Notes under the pieces: generated by a model
What the model saw: the letters and a program-made list of their open reading frames with translations, nothing else
What the model was told of the DNA's origin: nothing
The model's database searches: none
Translations under genes and position numbers: made by a program
Assembly (NCBI GenBank): GCA_017472065.1
Contig: JAFURB010000008.1
Location: 107 to 64,106 of the forward strand
Reading direction: 5' to 3'
From: Alphaproteobacteria bacterium
GTDB taxonomy: Bacteria; Pseudomonadota; Alphaproteobacteria; Rs-D84
Length of the DNA: 64,000 bases
Part shown: positions 3,930 to 8,600 of the stretch, piece after piece
Numbering within the stretch: position 1 is the stretch's first letter
Layout: every line of letters starts with the position of its first letter

Positions 3930-4607
3930 GTGCAAAACCGCGTAGAACCGCCAATTTTACTGTCCAGATTGATGACGTTTGTTTTCGCAACCGCGATTGT
4001 TGTGTTGGCTGTTATGGGGATAACATTGTATAAAATGTTTCCACTGAACCGGCCCCAGGTGTTCTTTTTGCGCGCCCGCCCCAGTCACACGTTAGAGGTC
4101 ACAGTGCGCGATATGGTGCCAACAGATGAAAACCTTGATTTTTACAAGCGCGCATTTATTCGCGAGTACATCAAGGCCCGCAATGAAATAACACCAAACA
4201 TTTCAGACATGCGAAAAAAATGGACAAACGACCCTTCTGCGGCGGTGCGCGCATGGTCAAACGACGCGGTATTTGGCGATTTTGCCCAGACACGCATGTG
4301 GACAGCATTAATGAACGAAATCCCTGGATTTGAACTGAAATGCCCCGTAGAATTTGTCCAGGGCGGCATAACACCACGTGGCGCAAATATGTACGCGGTA
4401 AGTTTCCGCCAATTTTGTGAAAATAGTGATGGACAGGTGGCCGCAAAAGATTATACAATTGTGTTAAGACTGGAATCAGATGCAGAAACACAGGTTAAAT
4501 GGATTGACAGGCTTAGCAACCCACTGGGGATTAAGGTAACACAATATACTGTGGAATCCGTCGATGGGGACAAGACTGATAAAACAGATCCGTTAAACAG
4601 GTTTTAG
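3930..4607 (+). CDS. virB8: type IV secretion system VirB8/TrbF-family protein
   Basis: 225 aa bitopic protein with one N-terminal TM. PLNRPQVFFLRARP follows the TM, as in VirB8 (P..VYL.IRP). Also has FIREYIKARNE (compare VirB8 WEYVRLRESY) and a C-terminal NPLGIKVTQYTV motif (VirB8 NP.G..VTSY). GTG start preceded by GGGGGAG. Confidence 0.65.
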   Translation: MQNRVEPPILLSRLMTFVFATAIVVLAVMGITLYKMFPLNRPQVFFLRARPSHTLEVTVRDMVPTDENLDFYKRAFIREYIKARNEITPNISDMRKKWTNDPSAAVRAWSNDAVFGDFAQTRMWTALMNEIPGFELKCPVEFVQGGITPRGANMYAVSFRQFCENSDGQVAAKDYTIVLRLESDAETQVKWIDRLSNPLGIKVTQYTVESVDGDKTDKTDPLNRF

Positions 4608-4636
4608 GCATAAATAATACGATAAGGAAGATTGGT

Positions 4637-6160: not shown

Positions 6161-6173
6161 TTGACTTAATCGG

Positions 6174-8600
6174 GTGTGGAAAAATATGAATAAAATTAAA
6201 AAGACTTTTTCAGATTGGCGCAGTGCTACACCAAAACGGGTTCAGTGGTTATTACTGGCGGCGGCGTTTGTGGTGGTGCTGATATTATTGACACTGTTAT
6301 TAATGGGTGGCGATAATGAAAAAATCGAAGAAGTGGATTCGGCACCTGTGAATTTGGTTGTAAAGCCTGATTCTGTGGACTGGCCAGATGTTATGGTTGG
6401 GGAATCAAAAACCCAGGTTATAGAAATTTCTGCGACGGGTCCGGCAAAAATATTGGCTGTGCGGCGCGATGCAAATATCAATGGATTAAACGTTAATACA
6501 GGATGCATGAATGCCGGTGAAATTAACGCAGGCTTCGCATGCACAATTACAATTGATTATGCACCGACGACGGCGATGACTGCGCGTGGGGTGCCATTAT
6601 TTATTGAATGGCGGGGCATAAATGTTCCAGATGAAATGAAAAATGAATATAAATACACCATGGTCATTGGCGCAGTTAGCCCCAAGGTTGAAACACCACA
6701 ACCCGTCGTCGTGGAAAAGGTTATTGAAAAAATAATTGAAAAGCCGGTTGAAAAAACTGCTGAACCCGAACCAGACGAAGAAGAATACGAAGAAGAAATT
6801 GAAGAAGAACCAGAAGTAGATTTGATCGCAACGACAAAACCGTTCGACACTGTAAAGCCACGCACAAACGATGAATATGTTGCACCACCAGAATCTTGTT
6901 CGGATTTTGCGTTTCCCGGGTATGACAATTCTGGCCGCCAAATCGGTTGGATTAAACCAAAGGGTGGTGCGTACTATTTTCATCCTTTTGCGGATAAAAA
7001 ATGTGAAAATGCAACCGGGGTTTATAATCCAAACAGCGGTATAATCACAGACATCAAAGATACATCTAAGAAAATCGGTACAGATGCCGATCATATTGGA
7101 TATGCAACAATTACAAATGGCGTGATACCGGAACTGTCCAACCCGGTAAAGGTGGCAGAACGCGAATCTTTGATTGACACAGAAAATCGCATAACAAGTG
7201 GTATGGGCCGTTTGGGCGACAGCAACAGCGGAGAAAATTGGATAGCCATGGGTGGAAAACACGATGCACCAAAACCGGATGTTGAGTATGAATCATCGGG
7301 CGATATGGTTGTATCCAGTAAAATTCATGACCGTCAATTCTTATTACGTCAATACAAACCTATTCCGGCGACAATCGTATCGGACGTTCGCGCAGATGTA
7401 GAAGCACTAAGCAATGGAAATATGGTACCAGTACGCGCAACAGTTGACCGCAATGTTTATTCAGACAGTGGTCGTAATGTTATTATTCCAACAGGTACAA
7501 TGATGTTGGGATATGTGACGGGGACATTGCCGGGACCATATACTTCGGTCGGACGTATGAATATTAAATGGTATCAATTTATTTTACCAAATGGGGTTGA
7601 ATTTAATTTTGACGGCGACAACGATCCTTTTTCTGCGGATTCACAGGGTAAAGTTGGTGTACCTGGATACGGCAGTACTGATTATATTGAACAATTCTTT
7701 ATGCCAATGTTAACCGCAATTGTACCGGCGGCGGTGAATTTGATTGCACCTGTAACAGATGCATTTGTAAACCAAATTGATTTGGATAATAACACAGTTG
7801 TGCAAAGCGGTACGGTGCGTTCATCAGAACTGGCCAAAAATGAAATTATTACCGCGTGGAATCAGGTGGCGCAAAAATTATTGGTTGATATGATGGATAA
7901 TACCGTTCCGCCATTTACGATTGCCGCTGGTACACGTATTAATGTGTATTCGCCGGTTGATTTGATGGTAACTTGCGGCTCTCCGGACGACCCAAATAAT
8001 GCTGGCAAAAAATGCGCGGTGGCGGAATATGGTGACGATAAACGCCAACGTTGGGCACATAATGCGAAACCAAATTATGATGACGGTTCTTGGACTGGCC
8101 AGGTGCGTTCGTTTGCCGTGACAGAATATTGCATAACTGATAAAAATGGTAACAAAACCGTTGATCCAAAGTGCAAAGATACAACAAAATGTGGCGGGTA
8201 TGACTATGCGACATTGTTATTCTATTGCCAATCGCAAAACTATCAGGCGATAAACATGGCAAAGCAGGATGCGGTGTTCCAAAGTCAACAACAAAAGTTC
8301 CAGGATACATATAAAGTATCAAACACAGGCCAAGGGTTAACGGGCGTTCAAGGGGATCAGGCGTATAATGAACAGGTTTTAGGATTAACATATGACGAAG
8401 ATGGGTATATCGAAAACCCGTTTGAAGAAAAAGAAGACGAGGTTATTATCGAAGCATCCGAAACCGTTCTGACCTGCGAAGATGGTAGTATGCCGGATGC
8501 AAATGGTTGCTGTGCGGGGGAAATTTACACCGATATGGGCGACCAAGGGTTTAATTGCTGTCCGTCAACGGGGGGCGATTGTTTCCCGCCAATACTGTAA
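6174..8600 (+). CDS. virB10: VirB10/TrbI-family protein, expanded (808 aa)
   Basis: N-terminal TM, then a Glu/Pro-rich linker (VVEKVIEKIIEKPVEKTAEPEPDEEEYEEEIEEEPE). TrbI core at aa ~385-597: VPVRATVDRNVYSDSGRNVIIPTGTMMLGYVTG...RMNIKWYQFILPNGVEFNF...DSQGKVGVPGYGSTDY...FTIAAGTRINVYSPVDL. A ~210-aa Cys-rich tail follows. An alternative ATG start lies at 6186. Confidence 0.75.
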   Translation: MWKNMNKIKKTFSDWRSATPKRVQWLLLAAAFVVVLILLTLLLMGGDNEKIEEVDSAPVNLVVKPDSVDWPDVMVGESKTQVIEISATGPAKILAVRRDANINGLNVNTGCMNAGEINAGFACTITIDYAPTTAMTARGVPLFIEWRGINVPDEMKNEYKYTMVIGAVSPKVETPQPVVVEKVIEKIIEKPVEKTAEPEPDEEEYEEEIEEEPEVDLIATTKPFDTVKPRTNDEYVAPPESCSDFAFPGYDNSGRQIGWIKPKGGAYYFHPFADKKCENATGVYNPNSGIITDIKDTSKKIGTDADHIGYATITNGVIPELSNPVKVAERESLIDTENRITSGMGRLGDSNSGENWIAMGGKHDAPKPDVEYESSGDMVVSSKIHDRQFLLRQYKPIPATIVSDVRADVEALSNGNMVPVRATVDRNVYSDSGRNVIIPTGTMMLGYVTGTLPGPYTSVGRMNIKWYQFILPNGVEFNFDGDNDPFSADSQGKVGVPGYGSTDYIEQFFMPMLTAIVPAAVNLIAPVTDAFVNQIDLDNNTVVQSGTVRSSELAKNEIITAWNQVAQKLLVDMMDNTVPPFTIAAGTRINVYSPVDLMVTCGSPDDPNNAGKKCAVAEYGDDKRQRWAHNAKPNYDDGSWTGQVRSFAVTEYCITDKNGNKTVDPKCKDTTKCGGYDYATLLFYCQSQNYQAINMAKQDAVFQSQQQKFQDTYKVSNTGQGLTGVQGDQAYNEQVLGLTYDEDGYIENPFEEKEDEVIIEASETVLTCEDGSMPDANGCCAGEIYTDMGDQGFNCCPSTGGDCFPPIL

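What the first reader, a model, noticed from the sequence alone, without database searches (positions are those of the whole stretch)
3930..8600. Isolated virB8-virB9-virB10 core module beside the ribosomal cluster, with no virB11/virD4 or other T4SS genes attached
Three consecutive genes carry VirB8, VirB9 and VirB10 signatures, visible in the translations. The module has its own candidate promoter and terminator. It sits between tRNA-Trp/secE and yidC. In Rickettsiales rvh-type systems the virB8-B9-B10 genes are normally followed by virB11 and virD4. Here they are followed by a terminator and two unrelated small ORFs. No virB2, B3, B4, B5, B7 or B11 gene is visible anywhere in the 64 kb. So this is either a heavily scattered T4SS or a stand-alone envelope-spanning core complex put to another use.
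Basis: partly seen in the sequence, partly recalled or inferred. Interest (0 to 1): 0.6.

Follow-up and report, generated by a model that had tools for sequence, protein, structure and literature searches.

The report
Core islet of scattered secretion machine
These three genes encode the envelope-spanning core of a type IV secretion machine in a tiny-genome gut bacterium (Candidatus Enterousia); its motors, membrane platform and pilin-like protein lie at five or more other chromosomal sites, an arrangement known so far mainly from Rickettsia.

Summary
Window 3930-4607, 4637-6160 and 6174-8600 encode VirB8, VirB9 and VirB10 homologues, all above Pfam cut-offs. The genes are tightly spaced. A conserved promoter-like block lies upstream and a hairpin terminator downstream.

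The trio is neither a duplicated fragment nor a stand-alone shell. It is single-copy, and the same 834-kb genome also holds virB3-virB4, a solitary virB11 and a solitary virD4. Five divergent VirB6-like genes lie in this same window at 43.5-50.1 kb.

In a closed 958,618-bp relative these genes, plus a VirB2-like gene, form six islets spread around the chromosome. Each component occurs in 55-61 of 61 sampled genomes of the family. The trio sits in the same place (secE | trio-orfA-orfB | yidC) in about 80 species, under purifying selection.

I found no relaxase and no VirB5. The best reading is a vertically inherited, dispersed, non-conjugative T4SS resembling the Rickettsiales rvh "archipelago". 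Its nearest relatives, however, are ordinary alphaproteobacterial virB loci. VirB9 carries a SPOR wall-binding domain. VirB10 is double length, with an Ig-like domain and a six-cysteine C-terminal module.

This scan had already found the separate pieces in other Enterousia genomes. The published Enterousia papers I read do not mention secretion systems.

The parts
3737..3800 (+). Conserved non-coding block upstream of virB8. It contains a -10-like TATTAT at 3784-3789 and is a candidate promoter or operator.
   Evidence: Promoter-like site 3762-3789. The block was found in 71 of 80 species loci, with AAAATCAAGcGGAAATATTATA at least 90% conserved. The motif is unique in the genome.
3930..4607 (+). 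virB8 (225 aa, bitopic: N-terminal transmembrane helix plus periplasmic domain).
   Evidence: PF04335 at E 3.2e-13, 50.5 bits against a 23.2 cut-off, over aa 16-208. dN/dS 0.11-0.17. Shine-Dalgarno AAGGGGGAG before the GTG start.
4637..6160 (+). virB9 with a roughly 200-aa C-terminal extension ending in a SPOR (peptidoglycan-binding) domain (507 aa).
   Evidence: PF03524 at E 6.2e-20 (aa 53-294). SPOR PF05036 at 21.7 bits against a cut-off of 21 (aa 468-505). Both domains are found in 15 of 15 orthologues. dN/dS 0.05-0.12.
6174..8600 (+). Long-form virB10 (808 aa; likely start ATG at 6186). Layout: transmembrane helix, Ig-like domain (aa 61-170), Pro/Glu-rich linker, a conserved Cys-containing middle domain, the TrbI core (aa 393-593) with two long helices, then a 210-aa tail ending in a six-cysteine module.
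   Evidence: PF03743 at E 2.1e-16; ASH and choice-of-anchor-D matches below cut-off. The architecture is conserved in 15 aligned relatives. In the AF2 model the Ig-like domain has pLDDT 82-90 and helices span 503-574, but the model overall is poor. dN/dS 0.09-0.17.
8710..8736 (+). Intrinsic-terminator-like hairpin after virB10.
   Evidence: 11-bp stem, 5 G-C pairs, followed by TTTTTTT.
8811..8866 (+). Conserved non-coding block upstream of orfA; a candidate separate promoter.
   Evidence: 80-89% identity in distant species. Contains TGTAATAT, an extended -10-like element.
8929..9270 (+). orfA, a 113-aa lineage-specific conserved protein with no signal peptide and no assignable family.
   Evidence: Present in 76 of 80 loci. 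72% mean column identity. dN/dS 0.04-0.15. 902 homologues, none with a Pfam domain or an informative name. No PDB, Pfam or PHROG match.
9285..9626 (+). orfB, a 113-aa conserved protein of unknown family.
   Evidence: Present in 73 of 80 loci; alignment A4. No match in Pfam, NCBIfam or PDB, and only insignificant PHROG matches (E above 0.1).
9626..9650 (.). Bidirectional terminator-like hairpin between orfB and yidC.
   Evidence: 11-bp stem with T-runs on both strands.
43536..44828 (-). VirB6-like paralogue m1 (start probably the Met at 44828).
   Evidence: hhalign against 11 bona fide TrbL/VirB6 proteins: 94.8% probability, E 5e-8. Against m3: 97.6%. Polytopic membrane protein.
44899..46170 (+). 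VirB6-like paralogue m2.
   Evidence: Linked to m5 by hhalign at 93.4%. Its direct link to VirB6 is not significant (1.7%).
46170..47357 (+). VirB6-like paralogue m3.
   Evidence: hhalign against bona fide VirB6: 90.1%, E 1.6e-6.
47357..48793 (+). VirB6-like paralogue m4.
   Evidence: hhalign 84-91% against VirB6, while YidC, KefB and LspA controls give 0.1-0.5%. Orthologues reach TrbL PF04610 at E 2.6e-6. The best PDB matches of the AF2 model are chains of the R388 TrwJ/VirB5-TrwI/VirB6 stalk, probability 0.98-1.00 and TMt 0.50-0.55. Found in 60 of 61 family genomes.
48794..50083 (+). VirB6-like paralogue m5.
   Evidence: hhalign 92.8% to m4 and 46.8% to VirB6 directly.

Best explanation
The trio is the outer-membrane and periplasmic core islet of a complete, vertically inherited chromosomal type IVA (VirB/VirD4-like) secretion system. 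The genes of that system are dispersed over at least six sites in the Candidatus Enterousia (order Rs-D84) chromosome.

Shown here: all other recognisable components exist as intact genes elsewhere, single-copy apart from the five VirB6-like paralogues and a possible second VirB8-like gene, and are retained across the family. These are VirB3, VirB4, five VirB6-like paralogues, VirB11, VirD4 and, in relatives, a VirB2-like protein.

Inferred: VirB8, VirB9 and VirB10 assemble the envelope-spanning scaffold. The VirB9 SPOR domain ties it to peptidoglycan. VirB10's transmembrane helix, Pro-rich linker and long helix pair connect the inner membrane to an outer-membrane pore. The five VirB6-like proteins form the inner-membrane platform or stalk. 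VirB4, VirB11 and VirD4 provide the energy.

No relaxase or VirB5 was found, and the lineage is thought to depend on partner cells. The most likely role is therefore contact-dependent transfer of proteins into (or exchange with) a partner or host cell, not plasmid conjugation. The target cell and the substrates are unknown.
For: - Domain assignments for the trio.
- Rest of the machine in the same genome. VirB3 PF05101 at E 3.3e-7 and VirB4 PF03135/TIGR00929 at E 5.8e-108, at C16:768-3492. VirB11 at C2:54753-55712, best model TIGR02788 at E 2.7e-43 covering positions 6-306 of 308. VirD4 at C13:94615-96864, PF02534 at E 8.8e-51.
- VirB6-like array in the window.
- Closed relative OZ007020.1. Islets lie at 27-33 kb (B8-B10), 65-71 kb (B6 x5), 131-133 kb (D4), 205-209 kb (B3-B4), 367 kb (B2-like) and 803-804 kb (B11).
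- Family tallies (61 genomes, 42 of high quality). VirD4 61 (42), m4 60 (42), VirB11 59 (41), VirB2-like 58 (41), VirB4 55 (41).
- Fixed synteny in about 80 species, and 248 species with the long VirB10. dN/dS 0.05-0.17.
- No MobA/MobL, MOBP-type or TrwC relaxase, and no VirB5, in five genomes, including the closed relative and a second single-contig assembly.
- The literature describes Rs-D84 as metabolically dependent on partners and does not mention secretion systems.
Against: - Co-retention does not prove that the islets work together. No shared upstream motif links them, and no expression data could be obtained.
- The VirB2-like gene is not found in this genome, which is 80% complete. The site syntenic with the closed relative has no room for it.
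- VirB6 homology rests on remote-homology methods (hhalign 85-95%; Foldseek E only 0.03-0.4). m2 is linked only through m5.
- VirB7 and VirB1 were not identified.
- All core proteins fall below NCBIfam equivalog cut-offs and barely match solved T4SS proteins: VirB10 to CagY at E 5e-5, VirB9 to nothing.
- The protein-versus-DNA substrate question is inference only.
Confidence: 0.8

Rival explanations
1. A stand-alone VirB8-VirB9-VirB10 envelope scaffold, put to a use that does not need the T4SS ATPases (for example envelope tethering or a passive channel).
For: The trio has its own conserved upstream block and terminator and no T4SS neighbour within 35 kb. It carries unusual additions (SPOR, an Ig-like domain, a Cys module shared with non-T4SS envelope proteins) that could serve envelope architecture. 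No regulatory motif is shared with the other islets.
Against: VirB3, VirB4, VirB11, VirD4 and the VirB6-like genes are all intact and single-copy apart from the five VirB6-like paralogues. They are retained in 55-61 of 61 family genomes with tiny gene budgets. In a genome under 1 Mb, keeping about 15 kb of partner genes without the core they normally dock on is hard to explain.
Confidence: 0.06
2. A decaying remnant of an integrated conjugative element or plasmid transfer region, broken up by rearrangements.
For: The nearest plasmid homologues belong to a contiguous virB2-virD4 cluster next to a MobA/MobL relaxase gene on alphaproteobacterial megaplasmids. Identities to the Erythrobacter aureus YH-07 plasmid are VirB4 32%, VirB11 39%, VirD4 33% and VirB9 38%. 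The relaxase is missing here.
Against: All genes are intact and dN/dS is 0.05-0.17 with saturated dS. Synteny with housekeeping neighbours is identical in about 80 species. Presence is near-universal in 18 of 18 genera sampled. The published genome analysis reports no pseudogene accumulation.
Confidence: 0.02
3. The same dispersed machine moves DNA rather than proteins: uptake, release, or relaxase-independent or novel-relaxase transfer.
For: VirB10 also matches the ComB10 model (E 1.4e-13). The genome hosts other gene-exchange devices noted by this scan (a GTA-like particle and a cassette array). Only three relaxase families were searched.
Against: From my own knowledge, ComB-type uptake systems lack VirD4 and VirB11, and both are conserved here. 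Known DNA-release and conjugation systems need a relaxase, and none was found in five genomes, including the closed relative and a second single-contig assembly.
Confidence: 0.12

Closest known systems
Rickettsiales vir homolog (rvh) T4SS (Gillespie et al. 2009, PMC2653234)
   Same: - A chromosomal, vertically inherited P-type T4SS in a reduced genome.
- Genes rearranged into an 'archipelago' of islets (five in Rickettsia; at least six here).
- VirB6 multiplied to five hydrophobic paralogues.
- No VirB5.
   Different: - Here virB8-B9-B10 is cut off from virB11 and virD4, which each stand alone.
- VirB4 and VirB9 are not duplicated. Only a weak second VirB8-like gene exists.
- The VirB6-like proteins are compact (395-478 aa).
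- VirB9 carries a SPOR domain, and VirB10 is double length.
- The organism belongs to order Rs-D84, not Rickettsiales.
- Its nearest VirB4 relatives are ordinary virB loci of other Alphaproteobacteria.
- A direct phylogeny with rvh proteins could not be made here.
Contiguous virB2-virD4 cluster next to a MobA/MobL relaxase gene on alphaproteobacterial megaplasmids (Erythrobacter aureus YH-07 plasmid NZ_CP031358.1; also Sphingosinicella and Microvirga plasmids)
   Same: These are the closest named homologues: VirB4 32%, VirB11 39%, VirD4 33%, VirB9 38%, VirB10 core 26%. The component set B2, B3, B4, B8, B9, B10, B11 and D4 is the same.
   Different: The plasmid genes form one contiguous cluster next to a relaxase gene on a plasmid and include a VirB5-like gene. 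Here the genes are dispersed on the chromosome, with no relaxase or VirB5 found and five VirB6-like genes.
R388 Trw / A. tumefaciens VirB-VirD4 archetype (PDB 7O3V, 8RT9, 8RTD, 7O41)
   Same: Same overall parts list. The m4 model's best structural matches are chains of the R388 TrwJ/VirB5-TrwI/VirB6 stalk. VirB8 weakly matches TrwG (E 0.045).
   Different: Sequence similarity is marginal. No VirB5, VirB7 or VirB1 was recognised. The archetype has no SPOR domain, Ig-like domain or Cys-rich module.
Helicobacter ComB DNA-uptake system / Cag T4SS core
   Same: VirB10 matches the ComB10 model. Its best PDB sequence match is CagY (E 4.8e-5). Like CagY, it is a VirB10 enlarged by extra domains.
   Different: From my own knowledge, ComB lacks VirD4 and VirB11, and both are present here. 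No Cag-specific components were searched for, and none turned up among the proteins examined.

Membership tests
Type IVA (VirB/VirD4, MPF-T-like) secretion system | VirB8, VirB9 and VirB10 core proteins | tested here: met
   PF04335, PF03524 and PF03743 all score above their gathering cut-offs.
Type IVA (VirB/VirD4, MPF-T-like) secretion system | VirB4 ATPase (the signature protein), with VirB3 | tested here: met
   G000:C16:768-3492. PF03135 at 51.5 bits, TIGR00929 at E 5.8e-108, VirB3 PF05101 at 31 bits. Found in 55 of 61 family genomes.
Type IVA (VirB/VirD4, MPF-T-like) secretion system | VirB11 ATPase and VirD4 coupling protein | tested here: met
   VirB11 best matches TIGR02788 at E 2.7e-43 over its full length, but below the equivalog cut-off. 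VirD4 hits PF02534 at E 8.8e-51. Found in 59 of 61 and 61 of 61 genomes.
Type IVA (VirB/VirD4, MPF-T-like) secretion system | VirB6 polytopic inner-membrane protein | tested here: inconclusive
   No Pfam hit in this genome. Remote homology supports it: hhalign 85-95% against controls below 1%, and the Foldseek top hits are chains of the R388 TrwJ/VirB5-TrwI/VirB6 stalk.
Type IVA (VirB/VirD4, MPF-T-like) secretion system | VirB2 pilin | tested here: inconclusive
   A small protein with a signal peptide and two transmembrane helices matches TrbC PF04956 weakly (E 3.6e-5, below cut-off). It is present in 58 of 61 family genomes but not found in this 80%-complete genome.
Type IVA (VirB/VirD4, MPF-T-like) secretion system | VirB5 and VirB7 minor components | tested here: not met
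   VirB5 PF07996 was not found in five genomes. No VirB7-like lipoprotein gene lies next to virB8, and no profile search for VirB7 was run.
Type IVA (VirB/VirD4, MPF-T-like) secretion system | Genes clustered in one locus or operon | tested here: not met
   At least six islets on a closed 958,618-bp chromosome.
rvh-type (Rickettsiales vir homolog) T4SS | Dispersed islets, about five VirB6 paralogues, no VirB5 | tested here: met
   The rvh features are taken from PMC2653234.
rvh-type (Rickettsiales vir homolog) T4SS | Duplicated virB4, virB8 and virB9 | tested here: not met
   VirB4 and VirB9 are single-copy. Only a partial second VirB8-like protein exists (30 bits, profile positions 18-102) beside bamA.
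rvh-type (Rickettsiales vir homolog) T4SS | virB8-virB9-virB10-virB11-virD4 kept as one islet | tested here: not met
   virB11 and virD4 are solitary, on other contigs. In the closed relative they lie about 100 kb or more from the trio.
rvh-type (Rickettsiales vir homolog) T4SS | Common descent with the Rickettsiales system | not testable with these tools
   No named rvh sequences were at hand. The nearest VirB4 relatives (35-42% identity) are in unnamed small alphaproteobacterial genomes, several with contiguous virB2-B3-B4-B5-like loci.
Conjugative T4SS (mating-pair formation plus relaxase) | Relaxase, and carriage on a mobile element | tested here: not met
   PF03389, PF03432 and PF08751 gave no hit over cut-off in five genomes. 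The chromosomal context is fixed in about 80 species.

The most novel reading that the evidence does not exclude
Enterousia evolved an 'archipelago' T4SS independently of Rickettsiales. It has a five-different-subunit VirB6 platform, a peptidoglycan-anchored VirB9 and a VirB10 decorated with a lineage-specific six-cysteine module that is also carried by two other envelope protein families. This machine is the device by which an apparently extracellular, metabolically helpless gut bacterium attaches to and exploits a partner cell, bacterial or eukaryotic. Genome reduction under host or partner dependence would then repeatedly drive the same T4SS remodelling: VirB5 loss, VirB6 multiplication and operon break-up.
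Probability: 0.3. Interest if true: 0.8.

Novelty: new variant of a known kind. Interest (0 to 1): 0.55.

Why it matters
Rs-D84/Enterousia bacteria are widespread in human, livestock and poultry guts. Their genomes are under 1 Mb and lack most biosynthesis, so they are thought to live off other cells, yet no interaction machinery has been described for them. A complete T4SS retained across the sampled family is a concrete candidate for that machinery.

For T4SS biology, it would be a second example, not obviously related to the first, of the puzzling rvh layout: dispersed genes, five VirB6 paralogues and no VirB5. Comparing the two could test whether these traits are adaptations to a dependent lifestyle. 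The VirB9-SPOR fusion and the enlarged VirB10 are also new architectural variants of the core complex.

Tried and rejected
- **orfA and orfB.** No match in Pfam, NCBIfam, PDB profile searches or a 5.8-billion-protein search, and only insignificant PHROG matches (E above 0.1). Both are lineage-specific 'hypothetical' proteins.
- **VirB10 structure.** The AF2 model was poor (pLDDT 52, pTM 0.24), so I did not run a fold search on it.
- **PDB profile searches.** VirB9 matched nothing. VirB8 gave only a marginal TrwG hit. The VirB2-like profile matched nothing meaningful.
- **A shared regulatory motif linking the islets.** The conserved virB8 upstream motif is unique in the genome. The islets share only generic extended -10 elements.
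- **VirB2-like gene in this genome.** tblastn and a custom HMM found none.
- **ATP/ADP translocase (PF03219), as a sign of an intracellular lifestyle.** No hit in 41 genomes, but the search had no positive control, so this is uninformative.
- **The C3 ORF with a weak TrbL hit.** It is an ABC-transporter-like protein, not VirB6.

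
Full report
**What is there.** Window 3930-4607, 4637-6160 and 6174-8600 hold three same-strand ORFs of 225, 507 and 808 codons.

| Protein | Pfam family | E-value | Bits (cut-off) |
|---|---|---|---|
| VirB8 | PF04335 | 3.2e-13 | 50.5 (23.2) |
| VirB9 | PF03524 CagX | 6.2e-20 | 72.3 (34.2) |
| VirB10 | PF03743 TrbI | 2.1e-16 | 60.8 (35) |

The NCBIfam VirB9, VirB10 and ComB10 models also match, but far below their equivalog cut-offs. Solved T4SS proteins are barely matched: VirB10 to CagY at E 4.8e-5, VirB9 to nothing, VirB8 to TrwG at E 0.045. 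So these are genuine but very divergent members of the three families.

The genes are 29 and about 25 nt apart and have ribosome-binding sites. Relatives align from residue 5 of VirB10, so the ATG at 6186 is its likely start.

**Boundaries.**
- A hairpin with a T-run lies at 8710-8736, and a bidirectional one at 9626-9650.
- The promoter-like match at 3762-3789 is weak on its own (9 of 12). It lies inside a 64-nt non-coding block found in 71 of 80 related species, with AAAATCAAGcGGAAATATTATA nearly invariant.
- A second conserved block (8811-8866) precedes orfA. orfA-orfB therefore probably form their own transcription unit.

**Whose genome.** The window is contig C17 of an 834-kb MAG with 17 contigs, 80% complete. 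Relatives of VirB10 are named Candidatus Enterousia, or uncultured Alphaproteobacteria or Rickettsiales, from human, ruminant, chicken and other guts. Published work places Enterousia in order Rs-D84. It describes genomes under 1 Mb without most biosynthesis and a probable partner-dependent lifestyle. The word 'secretion' does not occur in that paper's main text, and no paper in the library combines Rs-D84 with type IV secretion.

**Not a fragment, not mobile.**
- VirB10 and VirB9 occur once in the genome.
- The 800-aa VirB10 form has at least 877 database homologues and occurs in 248 species-level genomes.
- In 80 fetched loci the order rplK-nusG-secE | virB8-virB9-virB10-orfA-orfB | yidC-lspA-kefB-rsmA is essentially invariant. 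orfA is present in 76 and orfB in 73.
- Pairwise dN/dS is 0.05-0.17 for the trio and 0.04-0.15 for orfA, with saturated dS.
- This is vertical inheritance under purifying selection, not a decaying mobile element.

**The rest of the machine.** The same genome carries the following.
- virB3-virB4 followed by a 204-aa exported protein, at C16:768-4106.
- A solitary 319-aa VirB11 at C2:54753-55712. Its best model is TIGR02788, E 2.7e-43, over the full length.
- A solitary 749-aa VirD4 at C13:94615-96864.

Pfam TrbL/VirB6 found nothing convincing at first. Weak TrbL hits in other genera then led back, by tblastn, to this very window. Five polytopic membrane paralogues lie at 43536-50083, one divergent and four in tandem.

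Profile-profile comparison against 11 bona fide alphaproteobacterial VirB6 proteins (taken) gave these results.

| Paralogue | hhalign probability vs VirB6 | Other links |
|---|---|---|
| m1 | 94.8% | m3 at 97.6% |
| m3 | 90.1% | |
| m4 | 84-91% | |
| m5 | 46.8% | m4 at 92.8% |
| m2 | 1.7% | m5 at 93.4% |

Control alignments of YidC, KefB and LspA scored 0.1-0.5%. An AlphaFold model of m4 (pLDDT 64.7) has chains of the R388 TrwJ/VirB5-TrwI/VirB6 stalk as its top PDB matches, with probability 0.98-1.00 and TMt 0.50-0.55. Every unrelated match had a TM-score below 0.3.

**A closed genome gives the map.** I fetched the circular 958,618-bp relative OZ007020.1 in full. tblastn placed the genes as follows.

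| Component | Position |
|---|---|
| virB8-B9-B10-orfA-orfB | 26,984-32,721 |
| Five VirB6-like genes | 64,845-71,415 |
| virD4 | 131,248-133,452 |
| virB3-virB4-exported protein | 205,320-208,646 |
| VirB2-like gene | 366,971-367,351 |
| virB11 | 803,360-804,316 |

The VirB2-like protein has a signal peptide and two transmembrane helices. Its match to TrbC is weak (E 3.6e-5).

**Retention across the family.** I sampled 61 genomes from 18 genera, 42 of them of high quality.

| Component | Genomes (of 61) | High-quality (of 42) |
|---|---|---|
| VirD4 | 61 | 42 |
| VirB6-like m4 | 60 | 42 |
| VirB11 | 59 | 41 |
| VirB2-like | 58 | 41 |
| VirB4 | 55 | 41 |

This genome is one of three without the VirB2-like gene. 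The site syntenic with the closed relative has only 88 bp, so the gene is either elsewhere in the unassembled 20% or lost.

**What is missing.**
- No MobA/MobL, MOBP-type or TrwC relaxase in five genomes, including the closed relative and a second single-contig assembly.
- No VirB5.
- No VirB7-like lipoprotein gene beside virB8.
- A second, partial VirB8-like protein (30 bits, N-terminal half of the profile) sits next to bamA at C2:32723-33412. It has counterparts in relatives.

**Unusual architecture of the core.**
- VirB9 has a roughly 200-aa C-terminal extension ending in a SPOR domain. The match is just over cut-off here but recurs in 15 of 15 orthologues. A sister lineage with a contiguous T4SS locus has a VirB9 that aligns over the full length, including this C-terminal part.
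- VirB10 has a transmembrane helix, then a confidently predicted Ig-like domain (aa 61-170).
- Next come a Pro/Glu-rich linker and a conserved cysteine-bearing middle domain, followed by the TrbI core with two long helices (aa 503-574). Those helices are where the outer-membrane 'antenna' of canonical VirB10 lies; that placement is my inference.
- The 210-aa tail ends in C-x-DG-x2-PD-x2-GCC-x-GE-x-YTDMG-x2-GFNCCP-x2-GGDCFPPIL.
- The last 40-aa six-cysteine module also ends a 214-aa secreted protein (two copies) and a 696-aa bitopic protein in this genome.
- In a scan of 1.84 billion representative proteins, the module occurs in 233 clusters. In nearly all listed matches it lies at the extreme C-terminus, or as tandem copies ending there, in those same three size classes.
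- I infer that it is a periplasmic or surface docking module shared by several envelope proteins. Its partner is unknown.

**Relatives and origin.** The closest plasmid-borne homologues are on alphaproteobacterial megaplasmids of Erythrobacter aureus, Sphingosinicella and Microvirga. Identities to the Erythrobacter aureus plasmid are VirB4 32%, VirB11 39%, VirD4 33% and VirB9 38%. In that plasmid virB2-B3-B4-B5-...-B8-B9-B10-B11-D4 are contiguous and a MobA/MobL relaxase gene lies a few genes upstream.

In a sample of 301 alphaproteobacterial genomes, VirB4 proteins 35-42% identical occur in other small genomes. Some of these have contiguous loci. At least two have virB3-virB4 standing alone among housekeeping genes. 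So the ancestor most likely had an ordinary contiguous virB locus, and dispersal and VirB6 multiplication happened later.

The layout matches the published rvh system of Rickettsia: five islets, five VirB6 paralogues, only VirB5 lacking, and vertical inheritance (PMC2653234). It differs from rvh in having no VirB4 or VirB9 duplication and in having virB11 and virD4 split off. Whether the resemblance is convergent could not be tested, because no named rvh sequences were available.

**Conclusion.** I put 0.8 on the trio being the core islet of one dispersed, functional, non-conjugative T4SS. Of the steps in this argument:
- the presence, integrity and retention of the parts are shown;
- their assembly into one machine, peptidoglycan anchoring by SPOR, a mixed VirB6 platform and protein (not DNA) substrates are inferred.

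This scan had already flagged the trio, the VirB6 array, VirD4 and virB3-virB4 separately in other Enterousia genomes. Most earlier follow-ups of the trio could not check for the ATPases.

Noticed in passing
window 8391-8597 (VirB10 tail); also G000:C16:42584-43228 (-) and G000:C9:28242-30332 (+), outside the window: A roughly 40-aa six-cysteine C-terminal module (GCC-x-GE-x-YTDMG-x2-GFNCCP-x2-GGDCFPP[IL]) ends VirB10, a 214-aa secreted protein (two copies) and a 696-aa bitopic protein with a Pro/Glu-rich linker. It occurs in 233 representative clusters out of 1.84 billion proteins, nearly always at the extreme C-terminus or as tandem copies ending there. No Pfam family matches it.
   Followed up: partly
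window 8929-9270 and 9285-9626: orfA and orfB are small, apparently cytoplasmic, lineage-specific proteins fixed downstream of virB10 in about 75 of 80 species. orfA is more conserved than VirB8 (invariant WFWF and RRAPHQ motifs). No family or fold could be assigned. They could be a regulator or chaperone of the system, or merely syntenic neighbours.
   Followed up: partly
G000:C16:11610-16239 (outside the window); G001 220,899-225,591: A type IVb-pilus-like gene set (PilO-like PF06864, a 548-aa T2SSE ATPase and a T2SSF platform protein) lies about 8 kb from virB3-virB4 in this genome and about 12 kb from it in the closed relative. It is a second candidate surface-contact device.
   Followed up: partly
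G000:C2:32723-33412 (outside the window): A second, partial VirB8-like bitopic protein (PF04335, 30 bits, N-terminal half of the profile) lies directly after bamA. Counterparts were found in three of the four relatives searched.
   Followed up: partly
G000:C16:3492-4106 (outside the window): A 204-aa exported protein with an HEDQH motif overlaps the virB4 stop codon, where VirB5 or VirB6 would normally follow. It has no Pfam or NCBIfam match and is 64% identical in the closed relative.
   Followed up: no
G000:C8:14127-14215 compared with G001 366,971-367,351: The VirB2-like gene present in 58 of 61 family genomes is missing from the site syntenic with the closed relative in this genome. Only 88 bp separate the flanking genes.
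   Followed up: yes
window 12491-12573 (-): ARAGORN calls an 83-nt 'tRNA-Cys (aca)' inside the kefB-like ORF. Rfam's tRNA model does not report it, so it is probably a false positive.
   Followed up: partly
L223 (G167:C4:44000-63900) and L224 (G138:C7:1-20000): In two other small alphaproteobacterial genomes (1.1 and 1.7 Mb) with VirB4 38-39% identical, virB3-virB4 also stands alone among housekeeping genes. T4SS dispersal may therefore be recurrent in reduced Alphaproteobacteria.
   Followed up: partly
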